Positions 14,889 to 40,597 of a stretch of DNA of 64,000 nt are shown in pieces. Location: positions 112,357 to 176,356 of the forward strand of contig JADHVF010000002.1 of the NCBI GenBank assembly GCA_016784145.1, read 5' to 3'. Source of the DNA: Patescibacteria group bacterium. Its GTDB lineage: Bacteria; Patescibacteriota; Patescibacteriia; UBA2591; UBA6264. How positions within the stretch are numbered: the first letter of the stretch is position 1; each line of letters begins with the position of its first letter. A program made the position numbers and the translations under genes. The notes under the pieces are model-generated. The model was not told the origin of the DNA, ran no database searches, and was given only the letters and a program-made list of their open reading frames with translations.

Positions 14889-15260
14889 ATGATTCAAGTA
14901 GAATCAAAACTTAAAGTTATTGACAACTCGGGTGCAAAAATTATTATGTGCATCAAGGTTTTGGGTGGATACAAAAGAAGATATGCCAGAGTTGGAGATA
15001 TGATTACAGCTAGTGTAAAAAAAGCAACTCCTCATACTTTGACAAAAAAAGGGGAAGTTGTTTATGCTGTTATTGTCAGAACAAAAGCCCCTGTTAAAAG
15101 AAAAGATGGCACTTATGTTAGATTTGATGACAATGCTGCTGTAATTATTGATAAAAAAACAAAATTACCAAAAGGCAATAGAATTTTTAGTGTAGTCTCT
15201 AGAGAGTTAAGAGCCAAAGGTTATCTTAAAATTATTTCATTATCTCCAGAAGTATTATGA
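14889..15260 (+). CDS. rplN: 50S ribosomal protein L14 (uL14)
   Basis: MIQ.ES.L.V.DNSGAK and full-length uL14 conservation. Confidence 0.96.
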
Positions 15261-31457: not shown

Positions 31458-34400
31458 ATGCCTACTCCCTCAACAATTGGTACCATAAGTTTACAATCAA
31501 CAAGCAAATTAAAATCTTTTGATTTTGATTCTATTGGATTAAGCATTGCTTCATCAGAAGAAGTGTTGTCTTGGTCTTATGGAGAAGTACTAAAACCAGA
31601 AACCATCAATTATAGAAGCAGAAAACCAGAAAGAGATGGTTTGTTTTGTCAAAAAATTTTTGGACCTGTTAAAGATTGGCAATGTGCTTGTGGAAAGTAT
31701 AAAAAATTAAGATACAAGGGTATTGTTTGTGATCGTTGCGGAGTTGAAATAACCAGACGTCTAGTTAGAAGAAAAAGATTTGGACACATAAGTTTAGTAG
31801 CTCCAGTAGCTCATATTTGGTTTTTAAGAGGCATGCCATCAAAAATAGGTTTAATTCTAGGAATGACCATTCAGTCACTTGAAAAGGTGGTTTATTTTGC
31901 TAATTTTATTATCACAGATGTTAAAGAAGAATTAAAAGAAATTTTTTTAAAAGATTTATTAAAAGAATATCAAGATAAAAAGAAAGAAATCAAACAAGAT
32001 TTTAAAATTAATTCTGATGAATATTTTAATAGACTAGAACAATTAACAAGTAATTATAAATCAGCTAAAAATGAAATTTTAAAAATTAAAAGAAAAAATT
32101 TATTAACAGAAGTAGAATACAGAGATTTTTCTTTAAAATATGGACACATTTTTGAAGCAGATATTGGAGCAGAATCAATTTTAAGTTTACTAGCTACTAC
32201 TGACTTGAATAAGTTATTTAGAAAATTAAAAAAAGAAGAAGATAAAACAAGAAATCCTTTGGCTAAGAAAAAAATTGCCAGAAGAGCCAGATATGTTCAA
32301 GATTTTATTAAGAATAAAATCAGTCCGGCAAATATGATTTTAAATGTAATCCCGGTTATTCCTCCGGAGCTAAGGCCATTAGTGCCTCTAGATGGAGGGA
32401 GGTTTGCTTCTTCTGACTTAAATGACTTGTATCGTAGAGTTATAAATCGCAACAATAGATTGAAACGACTTTATGAACTTCGTTCTCCCGAAGTAATTTT
32501 AAGAAACGAAAAAAGAATGCTTCAAGAAGCAGTTGATGCTTTGTTTGATAATAATATGAGGGCAGGCAAAACAACTATTGCTTCCACGGGGCAAAAAAGA
32601 CCATTAAAATCTTTAGCAGATATACTAAAAGGCAAACAAGGGAGATTTAGAAAGAATTTATTAGGGAAAAGAGTAGATTATTCAGGCAGGTCAGTAATTG
32701 TAGTCGGCCCAAAATTAAAACTCCATCAATGTGGGTTGCCAAAAATAATGGCTATTGAACTTTTTAAGCCATTTGTTGCTTCTAAACTAATTGAAAAAGA
32801 GGTGGTTCATAATGTAAAAAGTGCTAATAGATTAATAGAAGATGGTCAAGATATTGTTTGGGATATATTAGAAGAGGTAACTAAAAAATCATATGTTCTT
32901 TTAAATAGAGCTCCGACACTTCATCGTTTAGGGATTCAAGCATTTCAGCCAGTATTAATAGAAGGCAAGGCAATTCAAATTCATCCTTTGGTTTGTGCTG
33001 CTTTTAATGCGGATTTTGACGGAGATCAGATGGCTGTTTATTTGCCTATTACTGCCAAAGGACAAACAGAAGCAAAAGAAATAATGCTTTCAACAAAAAA
33101 TATCTTAAAACCAGCTGATGGCAAGCCAGTTGTTGCTCCAACCCAAGATATAGTTTGGGGAGCATATCATATGACTTTTATTAGAAAAACAAAAACAAAA
33201 GAAAAAATGTATTTTAGTAGTATGGATGAAGCAATTTTGGCTCATGAGGCAAACAAAATAGATATTCAAGACAGAATTAATATTAAGGTTGATAAAAAAA
33301 TAATTAAAACAAGTTTGGGCAGGTTAATTTTTAATTCTACTCTGCCAAAAGGATTTTATGATTTGAAAAACCCAATCAGAAAGAAGGATTTAAAAGAAAT
33401 CATTGTTAAAATTTATGAACAACACGGAGAAGATTTAACAGTAGAAACTTTAGATAAAATCAAAAAAACAGCTATTTTTTTTCTTACACTTTCAGGTCTT
33501 TCATGGGGAATGGATGACTTGCCAGTCATTCCTGAAAAAGAAAAAATAATAAAATTATCTGAAAAAGAAATAGTAAAAATACAGTCAGAATATGATGAGG
33601 GGTTGCTTTCAGAAGAGGAAAGATATTTAAAAAGTATTGATGTCTGGTTAAAAACAAAAGATGAAATAACAGATATTGTTGTGCAGACAAAAAAAGATTA
33701 TGGGCCAGCTTTTTCAATGGTTCAATCAGGAGCAAGAGGCTCGTGGGTTCAATTATCACAAATGTTTGGCATGAGAGGGATTGTCTCTTCTCCTTCTGGT
33801 CGCTTAATAGAATTGCCAATTAAATCTTCTTTTAAAGAAGGATTTAGTGTTTTAGAGTTTTTTATCTCTACTCATGGTTCAAGGAAAGGAACAGCAGATA
33901 CAGCTTTAAGAACAGCCGAAGCAGGATATTTAACTAGAAGAATGGTTGATGTTGCTCAAGATATTGTTGTATCAGAAGAGAAGTGTAGTGATAAGCAAGG
34001 ATATAGAATTAGCAGTGAAGATAATAAAGAGGTTGGAGAAACATGGGAAGAAAGATTAACTGGCAGAACAGCTGCCCGGGATATAATTAACCTTAAAACG
34101 AAAAAAGTTATTGTTAAAACAGGAGAAATAATAGGGACAGAACAAGCCCAGACAATAGCAAAAATAGATCCAGAAGAAGTTTTCATATATTCTCTTCTTA
34201 CTTGTAAATTAAATAAAGGAGTTTGTGCTAGGTGTTATGGAAATGATTTGGCTTACAATAAAAAAGTCAAACAAGGAACTCCGGTTGGGATTATAGCAGC
34301 TCAAAGCATTGGTGAGCCTGGCACTCAATTAACTTTGAGAACTTTTCATACTGGAGGAGTGGCTGGAGAGGATATTACTCAAGGATTGCCAAGAGTTGAA

Positions 34401-35246
34401 GAAATATTTGAAACAAGAGCTCCTAAAAAGAAAGCTATTATATCTAATTATAATGGGACTGTTAGAATTAAAGATGAAAATAATTCCTCTAAGAAGATAG
34501 TGATTCAATACAAGGAATCACAAAAAGATGAACATAAAATTGATGATAATTGGAAATTAAAAGTAACTAATAAAGATAAAGTCTCAAAAGGAGATATTTT
34601 GGCAACATTTAAAAATAAGCAGATTAAAGCGATTAATAAAGGGGAAATAGAGTTAAATGTCAAAGATAAAATCAATGTTATTTATAACTCAATAAAAGAA
34701 GAGGAATATGAAGTAGGCGGATACAGAGTATTAGTAAAAGACAAAGAAAAAATAAACAAAGGACAGCTTTTAACCGATGGCAATCTTGACTTAAAAGAAG
34801 TTTATAAATTAAAAGGAAAATTAGAAGTTGAAAAGTATATTTTTAGGGAAATTCAATACATTTATTCATCTCAAGGGCAAAAATTAAACGATAAACATAT
34901 AGAGATAATAATTAAACAGATGTTTTCAAGGGTCAGGATTATAGATGCTGGTGATACAGAATTTTTAATCGGAGAAATAGTCTCCAAGAGTAATTTAGCA
35001 GAGGTTAATGATCAAATGAAAGCCAAGAAAAAAGCCCCGGCCAAGGCAAAAGAATTATTAACAGGAATAACAAAAGTTTCTTTATCAACTGATAGTTGGC
35101 TTTCATCGGCTTCATTTCAGCAAACATCAAGAGTTTTGATAGATGCTGCCATTAGTCAAAAAGTAGACAATCTAAAAGGATTGAAAGAAAATGTTATTAT
35201 CGGGCGATTAATACCAGTTGGCACAGGATATAAAACAAAAAAATAA
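31458..35246 (+). CDS. rpoC: DNA-directed RNA polymerase subunit beta' (1262 aa)
   Basis: N-terminal zinc finger CxC...CxxC (CACGKYK...CDRCGVE), the active site NADFDGDQM, and a conserved trigger loop. Confidence 0.97.
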   Translation: MPTPSTIGTISLQSTSKLKSFDFDSIGLSIASSEEVLSWSYGEVLKPETINYRSRKPERDGLFCQKIFGPVKDWQCACGKYKKLRYKGIVCDRCGVEITRRLVRRKRFGHISLVAPVAHIWFLRGMPSKIGLILGMTIQSLEKVVYFANFIITDVKEELKEIFLKDLLKEYQDKKKEIKQDFKINSDEYFNRLEQLTSNYKSAKNEILKIKRKNLLTEVEYRDFSLKYGHIFEADIGAESILSLLATTDLNKLFRKLKKEEDKTRNPLAKKKIARRARYVQDFIKNKISPANMILNVIPVIPPELRPLVPLDGGRFASSDLNDLYRRVINRNNRLKRLYELRSPEVILRNEKRMLQEAVDALFDNNMRAGKTTIASTGQKRPLKSLADILKGKQGRFRKNLLGKRVDYSGRSVIVVGPKLKLHQCGLPKIMAIELFKPFVASKLIEKEVVHNVKSANRLIEDGQDIVWDILEEVTKKSYVLLNRAPTLHRLGIQAFQPVLIEGKAIQIHPLVCAAFNADFDGDQMAVYLPITAKGQTEAKEIMLSTKNILKPADGKPVVAPTQDIVWGAYHMTFIRKTKTKEKMYFSSMDEAILAHEANKIDIQDRINIKVDKKIIKTSLGRLIFNSTLPKGFYDLKNPIRKKDLKEIIVKIYEQHGEDLTVETLDKIKKTAIFFLTLSGLSWGMDDLPVIPEKEKIIKLSEKEIVKIQSEYDEGLLSEEERYLKSIDVWLKTKDEITDIVVQTKKDYGPAFSMVQSGARGSWVQLSQMFGMRGIVSSPSGRLIELPIKSSFKEGFSVLEFFISTHGSRKGTADTALRTAEAGYLTRRMVDVAQDIVVSEEKCSDKQGYRISSEDNKEVGETWEERLTGRTAARDIINLKTKKVIVKTGEIIGTEQAQTIAKIDPEEVFIYSLLTCKLNKGVCARCYGNDLAYNKKVKQGTPVGIIAAQSIGEPGTQLTLRTFHTGGVAGEDITQGLPRVEEIFETRAPKKKAIISNYNGTVRIKDENNSSKKIVIQYKESQKDEHKIDDNWKLKVTNKDKVSKGDILATFKNKQIKAINKGEIELNVKDKINVIYNSIKEEEYEVGGYRVLVKDKEKINKGQLLTDGNLDLKEVYKLKGKLEVEKYIFREIQYIYSSQGQKLNDKHIEIIIKQMFSRVRIIDAGDTEFLIGEIVSKSNLAEVNDQMKAKKKAPAKAKELLTGITKVSLSTDSWLSSASFQQTSRVLIDAAISQKVDNLKGLKENVIIGRLIPVGTGYKTKK

Positions 35247-35287
35247 TAAAAATAAAACCATTATAATCTTTAATTTTATATATAATA

Positions 35288-35318
35288 TTCCAGGAAATTA
35301 TTTCTTGGAATTTTTTAT
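35288..35318 (+). terminator. Rho-independent terminator after rpoC
   Basis: TTCCAGGAAA-tta-TTTCTTGGAA: a 10-bp stem with one G-U wobble, followed by TTTTTT. Confidence 0.55.
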
Positions 35319-35339
35319 GTTATCAAAATATAGTAAACA

Positions 35340-35367
35340 TTGAAAATATTTTTTTATATGTTATAAT
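35340..35367 (+). promoter_or_regulatory. Sigma-70-type promoter for ftsK (TTGAAA, 16 nt, TGtTATAAT), ending 7 nt before the annotated ATG
   Basis: -35 at 35340-35345 and extended -10 at 35359-35367. The spacing implies a leaderless or near-leaderless ftsK transcript. Confidence 0.4.
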
Positions 35368-35373
35368 TAATAT

Positions 35374-37494
35374 ATGCGAAAAATAAAAGCAAAAGTTAAT
35401 AAAAAGAAAAAAATTGTTCACCAAAATCATAAAGCAAGGCAACAAATAACAGGGGTTGTTTTAATTGTTGTAGCCGTGCTTTTGCTTTTGGGAATGTTTA
35501 ATTTAGCTGGTGTTGGTGGAGAATTTTTAAGTTTAATTTTTAAAATATTATTAGGCAGGGCTACTTGGGGAGTTCCTGTTTGCTTGCTTGTAATATCATT
35601 TTTTTATTTTGCTTACAATAAAGTTTCAGAAAAAAGTCATATATTTTCCTTTAAAGCTAGAATAGTAGCTTTATTTTTAATGGTTTTGATTTTGTCTGGG
35701 CTGGCTCATATTAATTTTATTAATGACAAAACATCATTTCAACTACATAATGGTGGGGGATATATTGGTTTTGGTTTGAGCTATATTATGCTTAATACTT
35801 TTGGCAATATTGCCACATGGGTTATTTTTATAGGATTTTTAATTGTTTTAGCAATTATTGTTTTAACGGGCTTAATTAAATTTGATTTTAAGAAAAGAAA
35901 AGATAGGTCAACAGAAAATCATCAGCAACAAAAATTAATTGATGATGTTTCTAACAAGAAACAACCAATAAGTTCAATTAAAAAAAAGTTAAAACCAAAG
36001 CTTTTTTCAATAAATAAAAAACAAGAATTTTCTGAAATTAATGTTGAGCAAAGTAAAAAAACTTTTTCTAATAAGAAAATAGATTTACCTCTTGATTTGT
36101 TAGATGGGTCTTTGTCTAGACCAAATGCAGGAGATACGGATGAAAATAAATTAATTATTGAAAATACATTGCAAAATTTTTCAATACCAGTTCAAATGGG
36201 GGAGACCAAAACAGGGCCTACTGTTACACAATATACTTTTAAACCAGCCGAGGGTATTAAATTATCAAAGATTACAACTTTACAAGATGATTTAGCCATG
36301 GCCCTCGCAGTTCATCCAATTCGAATTGAAGCCCCTATTCCGGGCAGGTCACTGGTTGGAGTGGAGGTTCCAAATAACAAAATAGCAGTTGTTAGATTGA
36401 AACAAATGCTAGATAGTAAAGAATTTAAGAATAGCCAATCAAACTTTACAATTTCTTTAGGCATGGATGTCTCAGGAGATGTTTGGCTGAGAGACTTTGA
36501 TAAAATGCCCCATTTATTAATTGCTGGTGCAACTGGCTCTGGTAAAACAATTTTTTTGAATGCAATAATAATTAGTTTGCTTTACCAAAATTCAATAGAA
36601 GATTTAAGATTTATTCTAATTGATCCTAAAAAAGTTGAATTAACTCTTTATAATACCTTGCCACATCTTTTAACTCCAGTGATTACTGACCCTGATAAAG
36701 CAGTTAGTTCATTAAGATGGGCAATCACAGAGATGGACAGACGTTTTGAAGTTTTGTCAAAAGCAAAAAAAAGAGATATTTCTTCTTACAATAAATATGC
36801 AGAAGAAAAATTACCAAATATAATTATAATAATAGATGAATTAGCAGATTTAATGGCTCTTGTCCCTCAAGAATTAGAATCATGTATTGTAAGATTGACT
36901 CAAATGGCTAGAGCAGTTGGAATTCATTTGATTTTAGCAACTCAAAGACCTTCTGTTAATGTGATTACAGGAATAATAAAAGCAAATATTACAAATAGAA
37001 TTGCTTTTTCAGTGGCTTCCTTGATTGATTCTAGAACAATTTTAGATTTCTCAGGGGCTGAAAAGCTACTAGGCAGAGGGGACGCGCTTTTTATTTCTTC
37101 GGAATTATCAAAGCCCAAAAGAATTCAAGCTGCTTATGTTTCAGACCAAGAGGTAAAAAAAGTAGTTTCTTATTTAACTGAAAAACTAGATCAATCTTAT
37201 GATGAAGAGGTTATTAAAGAACCAGCCCAAGAAACAACTGATGGTTTTAGTGATTTAAAACAAGATGAATTATTGCCAGAAGCAGAGGAAATAATTATTC
37301 AGGCTGGCAAAGCATCTGCATCTTATTTACAAAGAAGACTAAGAATTGGCTATGCTCGGGCAGCTCGAATACTTGATTTATTGGAAGAAAAAGGGATTAT
37401 TGGTCCGGCAGATGGAGCCAAGCCAAGAAAAGTTTATAAGTCATTTGAAGAAAATAGTGAGACAGAAGACACAGAAGAAGCTGATAATCAATAA
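35374..37494 (+). CDS. ftsK: DNA translocase FtsK/SpoIIIE
   Basis: N-terminal TM helices, a linker, the motor domain (LIAGATGSGKT, IIIDELADLM, ILATQRPS) and a C-terminal winged-helix gamma domain (ASASYLQRRLRIGYARAARILDLLEEKGI). Confidence 0.93.
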   Translation: MRKIKAKVNKKKKIVHQNHKARQQITGVVLIVVAVLLLLGMFNLAGVGGEFLSLIFKILLGRATWGVPVCLLVISFFYFAYNKVSEKSHIFSFKARIVALFLMVLILSGLAHINFINDKTSFQLHNGGGYIGFGLSYIMLNTFGNIATWVIFIGFLIVLAIIVLTGLIKFDFKKRKDRSTENHQQQKLIDDVSNKKQPISSIKKKLKPKLFSINKKQEFSEINVEQSKKTFSNKKIDLPLDLLDGSLSRPNAGDTDENKLIIENTLQNFSIPVQMGETKTGPTVTQYTFKPAEGIKLSKITTLQDDLAMALAVHPIRIEAPIPGRSLVGVEVPNNKIAVVRLKQMLDSKEFKNSQSNFTISLGMDVSGDVWLRDFDKMPHLLIAGATGSGKTIFLNAIIISLLYQNSIEDLRFILIDPKKVELTLYNTLPHLLTPVITDPDKAVSSLRWAITEMDRRFEVLSKAKKRDISSYNKYAEEKLPNIIIIIDELADLMALVPQELESCIVRLTQMARAVGIHLILATQRPSVNVITGIIKANITNRIAFSVASLIDSRTILDFSGAEKLLGRGDALFISSELSKPKRIQAAYVSDQEVKKVVSYLTEKLDQSYDEEVIKEPAQETTDGFSDLKQDELLPEAEEIIIQAGKASASYLQRRLRIGYARAARILDLLEEKGIIGPADGAKPRKVYKSFEENSETEDTEEADNQ

Positions 37495-37640
37495 TTAGTA
37501 ATCATTAATCACTAATCAATAATCACTAATAAATAATAAATAATCACTAATCAATAATCACTAATAAATAATAAATAATCAATAATCACTAATCAATAAT
37601 CAATAATCACTAATCGTTAATCAATAATAAATAATCAATA
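37483..37640. repeat. Heptanucleotide tandem repeat array: about 20 units of TCAMTAA/TAAATAA, with a 35-nt higher-order unit repeated twice
   Basis: Read directly from the sequence: tcattaa tcactaa tcaataa tcactaa taaataa taaataa tcactaa ... in strict 7-nt register. It runs from the last codons of ftsK to 2 nt before the GTG of the next gene. Confidence 0.85.
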
Positions 37641-37642
37641 AA

Positions 37643-38305
37643 GTGTCTTTTATTCGTCATAAAATTAAAAATAATACAATTGGAGATGTTCTTAAACAAG
37701 TTCGTAAATCTTTTAATTTATCTTTGAAACAAGTAGAATCAAAGACAAATATTTCCTTAAATTATTTGAAGTTTTTAGAAAATAATAATTTTTATAAATT
37801 TTCAAGTCCATCTTATGCCAGGGGAGCTCTTAAAAAATATTCAGAGTTCTTAAAAATTGATTCCAAAGACATGATAACCAATCTTAACAGAGATTTTAAG
37901 GTTGGTTTTAATAAAAATAGAGAGACATTATCTAAAACAAACAAATTAAAATTATCAAAACAATCTTTTGGTATTAAATCAGCTTTTGTGACTGTTTTTA
38001 TGCTTTTAGTTTTGCTTTATTTAGGCATTAATATAAAGCAAGGAGTGCTAACATCTCCAGAAATTAAAATTTTTAATCCAGTAGATAATTTAATAACACA
38101 AGAATCAACCCTTATTATCAAAGGAAGAGTATCTCCAATATCTTCAAATCTTTTTGTGAACAATGAATCAATAGTGCTTAATAGCAATGGATTTTTTAAA
38201 CAAGAAATAGAGCTTTCGCCTGGATTAAATAATATTGAAATTTCTGCAACCAAACAACATGCTAAAAAAACAGTTATTAATAGAAAAATAATTTTAAAAG
38301 AATAA
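37643..38305 (+). CDS. rodZ: RodZ-like cytoskeleton protein (N-terminal XRE-type HTH, single TM helix, C-terminal beta-rich domain)
   Basis: TIGDVLKQVRKSFNLSLKQVESKTNISLNYLKFLE...SYARGALKKYSEFLKID resembles the RodZ HTH. The TM helix is SAFVTVFMLLVLLYLGINI. The start is GTG and no SD is visible. Confidence 0.6.
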   Translation: MSFIRHKIKNNTIGDVLKQVRKSFNLSLKQVESKTNISLNYLKFLENNNFYKFSSPSYARGALKKYSEFLKIDSKDMITNLNRDFKVGFNKNRETLSKTNKLKLSKQSFGIKSAFVTVFMLLVLLYLGINIKQGVLTSPEIKIFNPVDNLITQESTLIIKGRVSPISSNLFVNNESIVLNSNGFFKQEIELSPGLNNIEISATKQHAKKTVINRKIILKE

Positions 38306-38314
38306 TTTTATTAT

Positions 38315-39340
38315 ATGACAAAAAAAAATACTAAAAAAAATGAGCAAAATAAAAGAGAAAAAGCAACTGAAAATGCCATTGAACAAATAAGGTCAAAATA
38401 TGGTGAAGGAACAATAATGAGATTAAGGGAGGCAAAGCATCAAGCAACCGAAGTTATTTCAACTGGTTGTCTTTCACTTGATTTAGCATTAGGAGTAGGT
38501 GGTATTCCCAGAGGAAGAGTGACAGAAATTTTTGGACAAGAGATGAGCGGCAAATCAACTTTAGCACTTCATATTATTTCGCAGGCACAGAAAAAAGGAG
38601 GAATAGCTGCTTTTATTGATGCAGAACATGCCTTAGATCCTCAATATGCAGAGAGAATAGGAGTTAAAATTAATGATATGTTTATTTCACAACCAGATAG
38701 TGGAGAGCAAGCTTTAGAAATAGTTGAAACGCTTGTTCGCTCAAACGGGGTAGATATTATTGTAGTTGATTCCGTGGCAGCTTTAACCCCTAGAAGAGAA
38801 ATAGAAGGAGAAATGGGAGACCATCATATTGGCTTACAAGCAAGATTAATGAGTCAGGGGTTAAGAAAATTAACTAGTATTATTGGTAGAACAAAAACGT
38901 GTGTAATTTTTATTAATCAAATTAGAATGAGAATAGGAGTATTTTTTGGTAATCCAGAAACAACCACCGGGGGTATGGCCTTAAAGTTTTATTCTTCAGT
39001 TAGAATACATGTTAAGAAATTAGCTCAAATTAAAAGAAAAGATGAAGTAATAGGAAATAGAGTTAGGGCTAAAATTGTTAAGAACAAAGTAGCCCCGCCG
39101 TTTAAAACTTGTGATTTTGAAATTATTTATAACGAAGGCATATCTTATGCAGGCGATTTAATTAATCTTGGAGCTACCCATGGGTTGGTTATTAAAACAG
39201 GGAATACATTAAGTTATGACAAAGCCAAACTTGGCGTTGGGTGGGAAAAAGCAAAGAATTTTTTAAGAGATAATCCTAAAACAGCTAATAAGCTTAAAAA
39301 AGAAATTTTAACAGAAATAAGCAAGCAAGCAACAGAGTAG
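38315..39340 (+). CDS. recA: Recombinase RecA
   Basis: [32 protein letters not shown], and fully conserved loops L1 and L2. Confidence 0.97.
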
Positions 39341-39499
39341 AGAAGCAAAAAAATAAAAACATAAAAGCATTAAAAAATAAAAACAAAGCGATTAAGATAC
39401 AAAATACAATAACCAAATAATAATCAAGACATAAGATGCTCTCTTGTGTTCTGTTTCGCAGAATTTCGGCGGGCATGGCAATAATCAAGCAATAATCAA

Positions 39500-39545
39500 A
39501 ATATAAAAACCAAACAAATATTTTTTTGTTTGGTTATTGGTTATT
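39500..39545. terminator. Bidirectional rho-independent terminator between the convergent recA and Wzz-like genes
   Basis: AACCAAACAAA-tatttt-TTTGTTTGGTT: an 11-bp perfect stem flanked by an A-tract 5' and a T-rich tract 3'. Confidence 0.5.
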
Positions 39546-39616
39546 GTTTGCTCTGCTTATCTTGTTTATAGAGTTTGCAAAGGAATTTGTTTGTATCTTA
39601 TTTCTTGGAATTTGAT

Positions 39617-40597
39617 TTATTCTTCTTCTTTTTTAAAATATTCAGATCCAAAGGCATAAAATATTCCTGCAAACAATCCTAGTATGCCTCCAATCATCAC
39701 ATTTTGCTGTTTTTTCGGGCTGATTGGTGTTTCGGGTAAACTTGCCTCTACTTCTACTTCAGTAGGCTTGACTTCATAATTCTTTTCATGTTGTTTTTGC
39801 TGAATATCTTGCTCCAAGCTGATAAGTTTTTGTTCTAGGGTTAATAATTGAGCTTCTTTGTTTTCTTTTTGGTTTTTAGCTCCGGCTAAAAGATTAATAT
39901 AGCTTTGAGCAATTCTACCTTGTCCATCAGAATAAGCATTATTTCTTTTGTTAATTTCTTCTTCATATTTTTTGATATCTTGATCTAATCTCTCTAAGTC
40001 GGCTGTTGTTTTAACTTTGTCTTTATCTATTTTAGCTTTATCTAACTCAATTACACGTAATTCAGTATCAAGTGTTTTAGCTGCTTGAGCAAACATGTTT
40101 TCATGATAGGTTAACAAAATATCAGTCACAACCTTAACAATACTAACAGCTTTAGTAGGCGTATTGCTTTTCCCAATTATTTGAATGAATTGTGATTCTT
40201 GTTTGCCTTGATTAGGGTTGGCTATTTCAATCATTGATTTAATGTCATTGGTTGTTGATTGTTCTGAAAAATCAGTTGATGCTTGTAATTTGGTTCTTAT
40301 TTGTTTCAAGACAGTGTCTGTATTAAAGACGGATTTAATGTCTTCAAACTCTTGCAAGGTGGCATAAGAAAATCCTTTTTCTTTAGAAAGATAATTTTTG
40401 TTTTTGCCAATTTTAACTAAATTGCTGGCTTGATAAATAGGCGAGAGCATAAAACTAATTACAATAGAGATAATAATAGCAATTAAAAATATGCTTATAA
40501 TCTCTTTTTTTCTTTTTATAATGACATTAACATAATCTCTTAAGTCAATTTCATCTTCATGATATTGATTGTCTTGATCTTGATTTTCCATATTCAT
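39617..40597 (-). CDS. Polysaccharide co-polymerase / chain-length determinant (Wzz-like, PCP family)
   Basis: N-terminal TM helix, a long coiled-coil periplasmic region, and a C-terminal Gly-rich TM (VMIGGILGLFAGIFYAFG). Confidence 0.55.
   Translation of the reverse strand: MNMENQDQDNQYHEDEIDLRDYVNVIIKRKKEIISIFLIAIIISIVISFMLSPIYQASNLVKIGKNKNYLSKEKGFSYATLQEFEDIKSVFNTDTVLKQIRTKLQASTDFSEQSTTNDIKSMIEIANPNQGKQESQFIQIIGKSNTPTKAVSIVKVVTDILLTYHENMFAQAAKTLDTELRVIELDKAKIDKDKVKTTADLERLDQDIKKYEEEINKRNNAYSDGQGRIAQSYINLLAGAKNQKENKEAQLLTLEQKLISLEQDIQQKQHEKNYEVKPTEVEVEASLPETPISPKKQQNVMIGGILGLFAGIFYAFGSEYFKKEEE

What the first reader, a model, noticed from the sequence alone, without database searches (positions are those of the whole stretch)
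37483..37645. A 20-unit heptanucleotide tandem array (TCAMTAA/TAAATAA) that fills the whole ftsK to rodZ-like intergenic space
The array starts inside the last codons of ftsK and keeps a strict 7-nt register (tcattaa, tcactaa, tcaataa, tcactaa, taaataa, taaataa ...). It also has a 35-nt super-repeat (TAATCACTAATCAATAATCACTAATAAATAATAAA, twice). It ends 2 nt before the GTG start of the rodZ-like gene. Nothing comparable occurs elsewhere in the window, although AATAATCA-like copies recur at 39405-39500 after recA. A 7-nt period cannot be coding. Candidate roles are a slipped-strand (phase-variable) promoter/5'UTR for the rodZ-like and recA genes, an array of binding sites for a DNA-binding protein (for example the adjacent HTH protein itself), or a curved-DNA or replication/segregation-related element next to ftsK.
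Basis: seen in the sequence. Interest (0 to 1): 0.6.

Follow-up and report, generated by a model that had tools for sequence, protein, structure and literature searches.

The report
Variable 7-base repeat between two genes
The spacer between ftsK and the next gene in this candidate-phyla-radiation bacterium is filled by a real, copy-number-variable 7-base tandem repeat, which is best read as an ordinary slippage-prone bacterial heptanucleotide repeat in an untranslated gap within an operon, not as a promoter switch or a site specific to these genes.

Summary
The array is real: 22.6 units of TAATCAN at 37484-37642, lag-7 identity 0.83 against a background of 0.30. It contains an exact 35-nt duplication. 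It runs from ftsK's last codons to the GTG start of a RodZ-like HTH gene.

The host is a Patescibacteria genome. Six relatives keep the rpoC-ftsK-HTH-recA order, but their spacers are 15-79 nt, unrelated in sequence, and have no repeats. The array is therefore lineage-specific.

Near-identical strains (99.8-100% identical flanks) carry 22.7 or 24.7 units. Each allele was seen in at least two independent assemblies, and several assemblies break inside the array.

The only strong promoter-like site lies upstream of ftsK. No terminator was found until after recA. The array is therefore intercistronic.

On the mRNA strand the array has 2 G in 159 nt, no predicted structure, no ATG/GTG/TTG, and TAA in all three frames. 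Only 4 of 61 genes here have a Shine-Dalgarno-like sequence; their leaders are A/T-rich.

A second 12-unit array of the same unit, in the same sense orientation, fills the spacer between two hydrogenase genes 6.7 kb outside the window.

Verdict: a new member of the known class of bacterial heptanucleotide repeats. It may act as an unstructured leader. Low to moderate interest.

The parts
37484..37642 (+). Heptanucleotide tandem array (TAATCAN), 22.6-22.7 units, filling the whole ftsK to HTH-gene spacer
   Evidence: TRF score 204. Unit listing. Lag-7 identity 0.83 vs 0.30 background. Composition A87 T48 C22 G2; no ATG/GTG/TTG; 28 TAA across all frames.
37512..37581 (+). Exact 35-nt (five-unit) higher-order duplication inside the array (37512-37546 = 37547-37581)
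   Evidence: Unit listing. TRF period-35 row on the same sequence in L001/L006. Lag-35 identity 0.87.
37575..37588 (+). Polymorphic run of ATAATCA units: 2 units here, 3 in the L007/L012 allele
   Evidence: Side-by-side unit listing. blastn shows 2 gap openings against otherwise 99.8-100% identical DNA.
37596..37609 (+). Second polymorphic run of ATAATCA units: 2 here, 3 in L007/L012; the start of Logan contig L013 fits the longer allele
37492..37494 (+). ftsK stop codon (TAA), supplied by the second repeat unit
   Evidence: ORF 35374..37494. FtsK domains. Sequence.
37643..38305 (+). RodZ-like gene (HTH_25, one TM helix, C-terminal beta-domain) with a GTG start directly after the array and no Shine-Dalgarno sequence
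   Evidence: Pfam HTH_25 1.3e-15. NCBIfam rodZ model 63 bits, far below its 375-bit cutoff. Translation. N-terminus matches orthologues. The -40..+30 fold is -0.5 kcal/mol, third least structured of 61 genes.
35340..35367 (+). Best promoter-like site of the region (TTGAAA-16-TATAAT with TG), upstream of ftsK; likely promoter of the ftsK-HTH-recA unit
   Evidence: Consensus scan, 11 of 12 matches, preceded by a terminator-like hairpin at 35287-35311. This is a consensus match only.
38315..39340 (+). recA, 9 nt after the HTH gene; last gene of the inferred unit
   Evidence: Pfam RecA 3e-127.
39508..39535 (.). Bidirectional terminator-like hairpin after recA; the first terminator-like site downstream of ftsK
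39419..39501 (+). Three isolated AATAATCAA copies in the recA 3' region; two belong to one 11-nt duplication. The link to the array is weak.
   Evidence: Positions. TRF 39478-39499, period 11 x2.

Best explanation
This is a hypermutable heptanucleotide simple-sequence repeat (a VNTR), (TAATCAN)n. It grew by replication slippage, through both single-unit steps and one five-unit duplication. It now occupies the entire untranslated spacer between ftsK and the RodZ-like HTH gene, inside what is most likely a single ftsK-HTH-recA transcript of a Patescibacteria genome.

It is one member of a small family of sense-oriented TAATCAN arrays in this genome. These arrays run from the stop codon of one gene to within a few bases of the start codon of the next co-directional gene.

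The probable seed is the organism's own A/T-rich leader motif: TAAATAA is 18-fold enriched just upstream of starts.

On the mRNA the array is almost G-free and unstructured. It has no start codons and carries TAA in every frame. It is therefore translationally inert and resembles the Shine-Dalgarno-less leaders this organism normally uses. That explains why it is tolerated in this position and orientation.

Its likely effect, if any, is to give the GTG-start HTH gene (and recA behind it) a long open leader whose length drifts with copy number.

Shown: the repeat, its polymorphism, its lineage specificity, its intercistronic position, its RNA properties and the second array.

Inferred: slippage as the mechanism, co-transcription, and any effect on translation.
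For: - Repeat and higher-order structure.
- Two length alleles (159 vs 173 nt), each seen in at least two independent assemblies. Flanks are 99.8-100% identical: 4 mismatches plus 2 array indels in 9026 nt, and 0 mismatches plus 2 indels in 2060 nt.
- Several assemblies break or have N-gaps in the array.
- Six relatives (RecA 74-76% identical) keep rpoC-ftsK-HTH-recA-|Wzz. Their ftsK|HTH spacers are 15, 79, 50, 49, 54 and 29 nt, unrelated in sequence, with no period-7 array.
- Promoter-like site upstream of ftsK; no terminator-like site until after recA; nothing better than 9/12 at the array.
- Array RNA is unstructured, no better than shuffles (z +1.58).
- The HTH start region is the third least structured of 61.
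- Only 4 of 61 genes have an SD-like sequence.
- The 20 nt upstream of starts are 54% A and 35% T. AATAA is 5x and TAAATAA 18x enriched there over coding sequence.
- A second 12-unit array of the same units, in the sense orientation, runs from the stop TAA of the NiFe hydrogenase small-subunit gene to 4 nt before the ATG of the large-subunit gene, L347 3183-3265.
- The same TAATCAN x3 pattern gave more than 120 hits each in metagenome and viral contigs. Several arrays end at genuine start codons.
- Literature: heptamer SSRs are over-represented in bacteria, and slippage has been proposed as the cause (PMC4692102). TAACTGA heptamer repeats sit just upstream of SD-less start codons (PMC4679880).
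Against: - No transcript data, so co-transcription is inferred from consensus scans only.
- Promoters of Patescibacteria are poorly known, so an internal promoter cannot be excluded.
- With only two arrays in about 84 kb surveyed, the shared sense orientation could be chance (p = 0.25).
- The orientation bias seen in other genomes (43/108 vs 13/64 within 10 nt of a start, p = 0.011) is confounded by my ORF calling, because the reverse orientation contains start codons.
- TAATCA itself occurs in none of the other 60 leaders, so 'amplified leader motif' holds only for the TAAATAA variant.
- The 12-unit second array is monomorphic in 3 assemblies, so hypermutability is shown for the long array only.
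- Short-read assembly of repeats can miscount units.
Confidence: 0.7

Rival explanations
1. RNA-level signal. The transcribed (UAAUCAN)n tract is an active, selected binding platform. Candidates are ribosomal protein S1 or the 30S subunit as a standby site, a cold-shock-type protein, or Rho (regular UC dinucleotides, C far above G, unstructured, untranslated). It would set translation or read-through of the HTH-recA genes, with copy number tuning the output. This is the role proposed for TAACTGA repeats in Beggiatoaceae.
For: - Two arrays in the same sense orientation, each ending 0-4 nt before a start codon.
- SD-less genome.
- Unstructured, G-poor RNA with 22 C and 2 G.
- Similar arrays abut real start codons in unrelated genomes, with some forward-orientation excess.
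- Same proposal in PMC4679880 and in bioRxiv 10.1101/2022.06.06.494920.
Against: - Absent from all six relatives, which express the same genes from short unrelated spacers.
- Unit sequence is heterogeneous and copy number drifts.
- TAATCA is absent from the other 60 leaders in the window.
- No binding protein has been identified, and the presence of Rho in this genome was not checked.
- The literature proposals are themselves untested.
Confidence: 0.18
2. Phase-variable promoter or 5'-UTR rheostat, as for the (ATCTTTC)n tract upstream of Haemophilus influenzae hmw1A. Repeat number would set expression of the RodZ-like gene and recA as a contingency locus.
For: - Copy-number polymorphism between strains.
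- The repeat lies directly upstream of the genes.
- Precedent in PMC12721329.
Against: - No convincing promoter in or next to the array.
- No hairpin partner for the repeats. The 231-nt RNA folds at -8.1 kcal/mol, worse than shuffles.
- The downstream genes are housekeeping genes, not surface antigens.
- A second array sits between hydrogenase subunit genes.
- Only two alleles were seen, differing by 2 of about 23 units.
Confidence: 0.08
3. Array of DNA-binding sites. It would be bound by the adjacent HTH protein, or would act as an omega/ParB-type ribbon-helix-helix centromere (pSM19035 parS heptads, 5'-WATCACW-3'), or as a ToxR/H-NS-type heptad operator as at ctxAB.
For: - Six units read AATCACT, an exact WATCACW match, and eight read AATCAAT, one mismatch (motif from PMC9499535).
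- The units are contiguous, as omega requires.
- Three further AATAATCAA copies lie after recA.
Against: - No ParA or ribbon-helix-helix gene is adjacent. The neighbours are ftsK, an HTH_25 membrane protein and recA.
- Matching WATCACW runs are at most 1 unit long, interleaved with non-matching units, below the 4 or more contiguous heptads needed.
- All units share one orientation.
- The array is absent in relatives that keep the HTH gene.
- The same unit is found between hydrogenase genes.
- Two of the three post-recA copies are one duplication.
Confidence: 0.04
4. Structural or replication-related DNA element next to ftsK: curved DNA, an unwinding element, or a terminus, KOPS or dif-related signal.
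For: - Cumulative GC skew and gene orientation switch near 39.5 kb, so a replication terminus may be close.
- The array is only about 15% G+C.
Against: - TAATCA/AATAATCA are not strand-skewed across the window: 28 vs 32, and 7 vs 4 outside the array.
- A 7-bp period cancels bends over 21 bp (inference; no curvature model was run).
- The skew switch is 2 kb away, at the recA|Wzz convergence.
- Relatives lack the array.
- The second array lies 44 kb away, in a stretch not covered by the window's skew profile.
Confidence: 0.02

Closest known systems
Bacterial long simple-sequence repeats / VNTRs with 7-nt units (heptamer SSRs, reported as over-represented in many bacterial genomes; reviewed in Rehm et al. 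2015, PMC4692102, which cites Mrazek et al. 2007)
   Same: - Intergenic head-to-tail 7-nt units.
- Imperfect copies.
- Length and sequence variation between close strains.
- Lineage-specific presence between conserved flanking genes.
- Slippage as the presumed origin.
   Different: - The host is a reduced Patescibacteria genome.
- The unit is A/T-rich and G-free, not the G-rich units studied in Xanthomonas and Nostoc.
- The array fills a whole intercistronic spacer, stop codon to start codon.
TAACTGA intergenic direct repeats of marine Beggiatoaceae, some Cyanobacteria and Bacteroidetes (MacGregor 2015, PMC4679880)
   Same: - Heptamer direct repeats in 'forward' orientation ending a few nucleotides before start codons that lack a Shine-Dalgarno sequence.
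- Stop codons in the forward orientation, so the repeats can overlap only the very end of the upstream gene.
- No predicted RNA structure.
- Several sites per genome.
- Arrays of up to 43 copies in some species.
   Different: - Different heptamer. TAATCAN is not a rotation or the complement of TAACTGA.
- Most Beggiatoaceae sets have 2-6 copies, against 12 and 22-25 here.
- Only two arrays are known so far in this genome.
- No function has been shown in either case.
Cyanobacterial STRR (short tandemly repeated repetitive) heptanucleotide sequences
   Same: - Tandem heptamers in non-coding DNA, many per genome.
- My pattern search pulled out many contigs with several different heptamer arrays of this kind.
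   Different: - STRR units are different sequences and occur in hundreds of copies per genome in filamentous cyanobacteria (my own knowledge; Calothrix heptanucleotides are mentioned in PMC4692102).
- I did not check the taxonomy of those contigs.
Haemophilus influenzae hmw1A/hmw2A (ATCTTTC)n 5'-UTR repeat (PMC12721329)
   Same: - A transcribed, copy-number-variable heptanucleotide tract directly upstream of a gene.
   Different: - The hmw repeats pair with a G-rich region into an RNase III hairpin and lie downstream of a dedicated promoter of an adhesin gene.
- Here there is no hairpin, no promoter and no surface-antigen gene.
pSM19035 parS: contiguous omega (RHH ParB) heptads 5'-WATCACW-3' (PMC9499535)
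   Same: - Contiguous 7-bp repeats.
- Six units (AATCACT) match the consensus exactly.
   Different: - No adjacent ParA/RHH genes.
- Matching units are not contiguous.
- The site is chromosomal and intra-operon.
- Copy number is variable.
- The same unit occurs between hydrogenase genes.

Membership tests
Bacterial heptanucleotide SSR / VNTR | Head-to-tail repeats of one short unit (7 nt) with high copy-to-copy identity | tested here: met
   TRF period 7, 22.6 copies, 83% matches. Lag-7 identity 0.83.
Bacterial heptanucleotide SSR / VNTR | Non-coding location | tested here: met
   Lies between ftsK stop 37494 and GTG 37643. Stop codons in all six frames.
Bacterial heptanucleotide SSR / VNTR | Unit-number variation between closely related strains | tested here: met
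   159 vs 173 nt, two separate +7 events, flanks 99.8-100% identical, each allele in at least two assemblies. Based on short-read assemblies; long reads were not available.
Bacterial heptanucleotide SSR / VNTR | Not conserved at the orthologous site in other species | tested here: met
   Six syntenic relatives have 15-79 nt unrelated spacers without repeats.
Start-codon-proximal heptamer direct repeats (TAACTGA type, MacGregor 2015) | The heptamer TAACTGA itself | tested here: not met
   The unit is TAATCAN. No rotation or reverse complement equals TAACTGA.
Start-codon-proximal heptamer direct repeats (TAACTGA type, MacGregor 2015) | Forward orientation, ending within a few nucleotides of a start codon that lacks a Shine-Dalgarno sequence | tested here: met
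   The array register ends at 37642 and the GTG is at 37643. The second array ends 4 nt before an ATG. No SD at either.
Start-codon-proximal heptamer direct repeats (TAACTGA type, MacGregor 2015) | Many sets per genome | tested here: inconclusive
   Two arrays in about 84 kb of the genome that I could read.
Phase-variable 5'-UTR/promoter SSR (hmw1A type) | Dedicated promoter upstream of, or overlapping, the repeat tract | tested here: not met
   Only 9/12 consensus matches at the array edge. The strong site is upstream of ftsK. This was a consensus scan only.
Phase-variable 5'-UTR/promoter SSR (hmw1A type) | Repeats pair with a complementary region to form a long RNA hairpin (RNase III target) | tested here: not met
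   MFE -8.1 kcal/mol for 231 nt, z +1.58 vs shuffles. The centroid is unpaired across the array.
Phase-variable 5'-UTR/promoter SSR (hmw1A type) | Expression of the downstream gene changes with repeat number | not testable with these tools
   Needs reporter assays or transcript/protein measurements.
omega/RHH-ParB heptad centromere (pSM19035 parS) | Four or more contiguous WATCACW heptads | tested here: not met
   The six AATCACT units are each flanked by non-matching units (AATCAAT, AATAAAT), so the longest run of exact matches is 1. The requirement is from PMC9499535.
omega/RHH-ParB heptad centromere (pSM19035 parS) | Cognate RHH ParB and ParA genes next to the heptads | tested here: not met
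   The neighbours are FtsK, an HTH_25 membrane protein and RecA. No ParA/RHH family appears in the per-gene Pfam lists of the flanks. The rest of the genome was not seen.
   The architecture fits. The NCBIfam rodZ model scores 63 bits against a cut-off of 375. The C-terminal domain hits Glucodextran_B rather than the usual RodZ C-domain.

The most novel reading that the evidence does not exclude
TAATCAN arrays could be a genome-wide, sense-strand-specific intercistronic signal in a Shine-Dalgarno-less Patescibacteria lineage. This would be an independently evolved counterpart of the Beggiatoaceae TAACTGA network. The arrays would be read on the mRNA by the ribosome (S1) or another single-strand RNA-binding factor, to restart or meter translation (or Rho loading) between cistrons. 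Slippage-driven copy number would tune expression of recA and of the hydrogenase large subunit.
Probability: 0.12. Interest if true: 0.55.

Novelty: new member of a known kind. Interest (0 to 1): 0.3.

Why it matters
It matters modestly.

- It adds a candidate-phyla-radiation example to the unexplained class of heptamer repeats that sit exactly between a stop codon and an SD-less start codon. It shows that at least one such array is a mutational hot spot in natural populations.
- If these arrays prove to be functional leaders, they would bear on how translation starts and is coupled in organisms that do not use Shine-Dalgarno pairing.
- Practically, the array is a strain marker (VNTR) for this uncultured lineage. 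It also repeatedly breaks or gaps short-read assemblies.
- It is not evidence for a new regulatory system tied to ftsK, RodZ or recA.

Tried and rejected
- **KOPS-like or polar motif.** I counted TAATCA and AATAATCA on both strands across the window and found no skew.
- **Known RNA families.** Rfam at gathering thresholds gave 0 hits in the window. There are no tRNA or tmRNA genes.
- **GTDB species genomes.** A RecA scan gave at best 67% identity, and no period-7 arrays near recA in 80 loci. These were too distant to be informative.
- **Homologues of the HTH protein.** Only the protein itself was found, so I reached relatives through RecA instead.
- **Longer alleles.** The apparent 247- and 303-nt spacers in L006/L009 are 100-N scaffolding gaps. 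In L009 they also include a duplicated array end. They are not real expansions.
- **More alleles through an FtsK look-up.** This gave only one further contig, which breaks inside the array.
- **hmw-like hairpin.** None was predicted.
- **Promoter in the array.** Nothing above 9/12.
- **Omega-type centromere.** Consensus units are present but not contiguous, and no partner genes are nearby.
- **Pfam scan of 39 further window genes through an alignment.** It returned only a family summary without a per-gene table, so it was of little use. No partition or RHH family was among the 25 families listed.
- **Literature on Shine-Dalgarno use in Patescibacteria.** No papers were found.
- **Orientation statistics on 291 TAATCAN arrays from other contigs.** I kept these only as weak evidence, because of an ORF-calling bias.


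Full report
**1. The observation**

The sequence at 37484-37642 is a head-to-tail array of 7-nt units. Tandem Repeats Finder gives period 7, 22.6 copies, 83% matches and score 204. The next best array in the 64-kb window scores 65.

In the TAATCAN register the units are TAATCAA x8, TAATCAC x6, TAATAAA x5, and single TAATTAG, TAATCAT and TAATCGT.

Lag-7 identity is 0.83. The window mean is 0.30 (sd 0.05) and the maximum elsewhere is 0.47.

A five-unit, 35-nt block is duplicated exactly (37512-37546 and 37547-37581).

The array begins in the last codons of ftsK. The stop TAA at 37492-37494 is part of unit 2. The array runs up to the GTG at 37643.

**2. The surroundings**

- The genes are rpoC (31458-35246), ftsK (35374-37494), a 220-aa protein with an HTH_25 domain, and recA (38315-39340). 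A convergent Wzz-type gene follows.
- The 220-aa protein also has one hydrophobic helix and a C-terminal beta-type domain (37643-38305). Its architecture is RodZ-like, but it scores 63 bits against a 375-bit cut-off for the NCBIfam rodZ model.
- The GTG start is supported by six orthologues whose N-termini match.
- The window is about 30% G+C and very compact. Most same-strand gaps are 12 nt or less.
- The best promoter-like site of the region (11/12, with TG) is at 35340-35367, just after a terminator-like hairpin that follows rpoC.
- No terminator-like site occurs between ftsK and the bidirectional hairpin at 39508-39535 after recA.
- Nothing better than 9/12 touches the array.
- I therefore infer one ftsK-HTH-recA transcript, with the array as an intercistronic spacer. 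This rests on consensus scans, not on transcript data.

**3. Whose genome, and is the array conserved?**

- The exact RecA and HTH proteins occur on contigs from several ENA and Logan assemblies. NCBI names them 'Patescibacteria group bacterium'.
- The closest RecA sequences are only 74-77% identical. In the GTDB species set the best is 67%.
- Six relatives reached through RecA keep the order rpoC-ftsK-HTH_25-recA-|Wzz.
- Their ftsK|HTH spacers are 15, 79, 50, 49, 54 and 29 nt. They are unrelated to each other and contain no period-7 repeat.
- The array is therefore a lineage-specific expansion in a normally short, unconstrained spacer.

**4. Polymorphism**

- In the resolved assemblies the distance from a fixed anchor to the GTG is 159 nt in the window and in the left part of L009. 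It is 173 nt in L007 and L012.
- The difference is one extra ATAATCA unit in each of two separate runs (window 37575-37588 and 37596-37609). The start of Logan contig L013 fits the longer allele.
- The flanks are almost identical: 4 mismatches in 9026 nt for L002, and none in 2060 nt for L012. The array therefore contributes two of the six differences, although it is 1.8% of the length.
- One strain also has a base change in unit 3.
- The apparent 247- and 303-nt spacers are 100-N scaffold gaps. Four Logan contigs end inside the array.
- This is the behaviour of a slippage-prone VNTR. The caveat is that all the data come from short-read assemblies.

**5. Properties on the mRNA strand**

- The array has A87 T48 C22 G2.
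- It has no ATG, GTG or TTG, and 28 TAA spread evenly over the three frames. The reverse strand carries 15 start-type codons, and TGA in all frames.
- The RNA is predicted to be unstructured. For 231 nt the MFE is -8.1 kcal/mol, weaker than shuffles, and the centroid is unpaired across the array.
- The -40..+30 window of the HTH gene folds at -0.5 kcal/mol, the third least structured of 61 genes. The mean at starts is -4.3, and -7.9 inside genes.
- Only 4 of 61 genes have a Shine-Dalgarno-like sequence.
- The 20 nt before start codons are 54% A and 35% T. TAAATAA, one of the array's unit types, is 18-fold enriched there. A (TAAATAA)2.3 seed precedes the gene at 14889.
- In the sense orientation the array therefore looks like a very long version of this organism's normal leader, and it is translationally inert.

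**6. A second array**

I extended 10 kb beyond each end of the window on the same contig. This showed a 12-unit array of the same units (TAATCAC x5, TAATCAA x4, TAATCAT x2, TAATAAC x1) at L347 3183-3265, about 6.7 kb left of the window.

- It lies on the other DNA strand, but again in the sense orientation of its genes.
- It starts with the TAA stop of the NiFe hydrogenase small-subunit gene. It ends 4 nt before the ATG of the large-subunit gene.
- It is identical in three assemblies.
- The two arrays share a 27-nt identical stretch.
- The element is therefore not specific to ftsK, RodZ or recA.

**7. Elsewhere**

- The fetched loci carry 666 period-7 arrays of many unit types, often several per contig.
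- Several TAATCAN arrays there end exactly at plausible start codons and fill whole spacers.
- A crude count suggests an excess of the forward orientation next to starts: 43/108 against 13/64 within 10 nt, p = 0.011. My ORF calling biases this comparison, so I treat it as weak evidence.

**8. What is known**

- Heptameric SSRs are reported as over-represented in bacterial genomes. They vary between close relatives, and polymerase slippage has been proposed to favour them. The heptamer GTGATTA, the complement of TAATCAC, was noted in Helicobacter pylori (PMC4692102).
- MacGregor (PMC4679880) described TAACTGA direct repeats that end a few nucleotides before SD-less start codons. They carry stop codons in the forward orientation and have no predicted RNA structure. 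Arrays reach 43 copies in some Bacteroidetes and Cyanobacteria. A translational role was suggested but not tested.
- Heptamer repeats near recF and recO starts in Nostoc have been proposed to affect expression (bioRxiv 10.1101/2022.06.06.494920).
- The hmw1A (ATCTTTC)n tract works through a 5'-UTR hairpin and RNase III (PMC12721329). No such hairpin exists here.
- pSM19035 parS uses four or more contiguous WATCACW heptads, bound by an RHH ParB encoded next to them (PMC9499535). Here six units match, but never contiguously, and no partner genes are nearby.

**9. Conclusion**

The best-supported reading is a slippage-generated heptanucleotide VNTR. It is one of at least two sense-oriented TAATCAN arrays that occupy intercistronic spacers in this genome. 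It is tolerated because in that orientation it is unstructured, free of start codons, full of stop codons and similar to native leaders. It may also serve as an open leader for the GTG-start gene.

I put 0.7 on this overall: about 0.9 on 'SSR/VNTR made by slippage' and about 0.3 on any real effect on translation.

An actively selected RNA signal is the main rival (0.18). A phase-variable promoter/UTR switch (0.08), a DNA-binding-site array (0.04) and a structural or terminus element (0.02) are less likely.

It is a new member of a known kind. Interest is low to moderate.

Noticed in passing
L347 3183-3265 (same contig, about 6.7 kb left of window position 1): A second 12-unit TAATCAN array. 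It fills the spacer from the stop of the NiFe hydrogenase small-subunit gene to 4 nt before the ATG of the large-subunit gene, in the sense orientation. It is identical in three assemblies.
   Followed up: yes
window 37576-37602 and L347 3183-3265: The two arrays lie in inverted orientation about 44 kb apart and share a 27-nt identical stretch. They could be a substrate for inversion of the segment that holds the ribosomal-protein and rpoBC genes. No inverted variant was seen among the contigs read.
   Followed up: partly
window 38000-40000 (switch near 39340-39620): GC skew, AT skew and gene orientation all switch here. Genes on + lie to the left and genes on - to the right, converging on a bidirectional terminator at 39508-39535. 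This could mark a replication terminus or simply the gene-strand change. No dif-like site was sought.
   Followed up: no
whole window (61 gene starts): Only 4 of 61 genes have a Shine-Dalgarno-like sequence. Leaders are 54% A and 35% T with TAAATAA/AATAA motifs. Start regions fold much more weakly (-4.3 kcal/mol) than coding windows (-7.9). This suggests SD-independent initiation in this Patescibacteria lineage.
   Followed up: partly
window 31458-40597 and loci L334, L335, L337, L340, L342, L344: The gene order rpoC-ftsK-HTH_25 (RodZ-like membrane protein)-recA, followed by a convergent Wzz-type gene, is conserved in seven lineages of this clade (RecA 74-77% identical). The RodZ-like gene sits 9-116 nt upstream of recA, hinting at a functional link.
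   Followed up: partly
window 39341-39507: The recA 3' region has A-rich short repeats (AAAAACAT x4.9; a 22-nt unit x2.1), an exact 11-nt duplication (GCAATAATCAA), and a G+C-richer stretch of about 45 nt (39437-39478). There is no Rfam match. It could be a small RNA or a 3'-UTR element.
   Followed up: no
loci L094-L333 (for example L226, L242, L283, L297, L309): Many metagenome and 'viral' contigs of 45-62% G+C carry several different heptanucleotide arrays each (666 period-7 arrays in 240 loci). This resembles cyanobacterial STRR-type repeats. I did not check the taxonomy of these contigs, or why they are filed as viral.
   Followed up: no
L349 8465-9990 (vs L347 8491-9990); L001 vs L002 6332-8206: Strain-level gene differences. 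A class-I tRNA synthetase gene is called as two pieces (394 + 106 aa) in one assembly. The Polysacc_synt_2 gene is called as 615 or 624 aa in different strains. These could be frameshifts, start-site differences or assembly errors.
   Followed up: no
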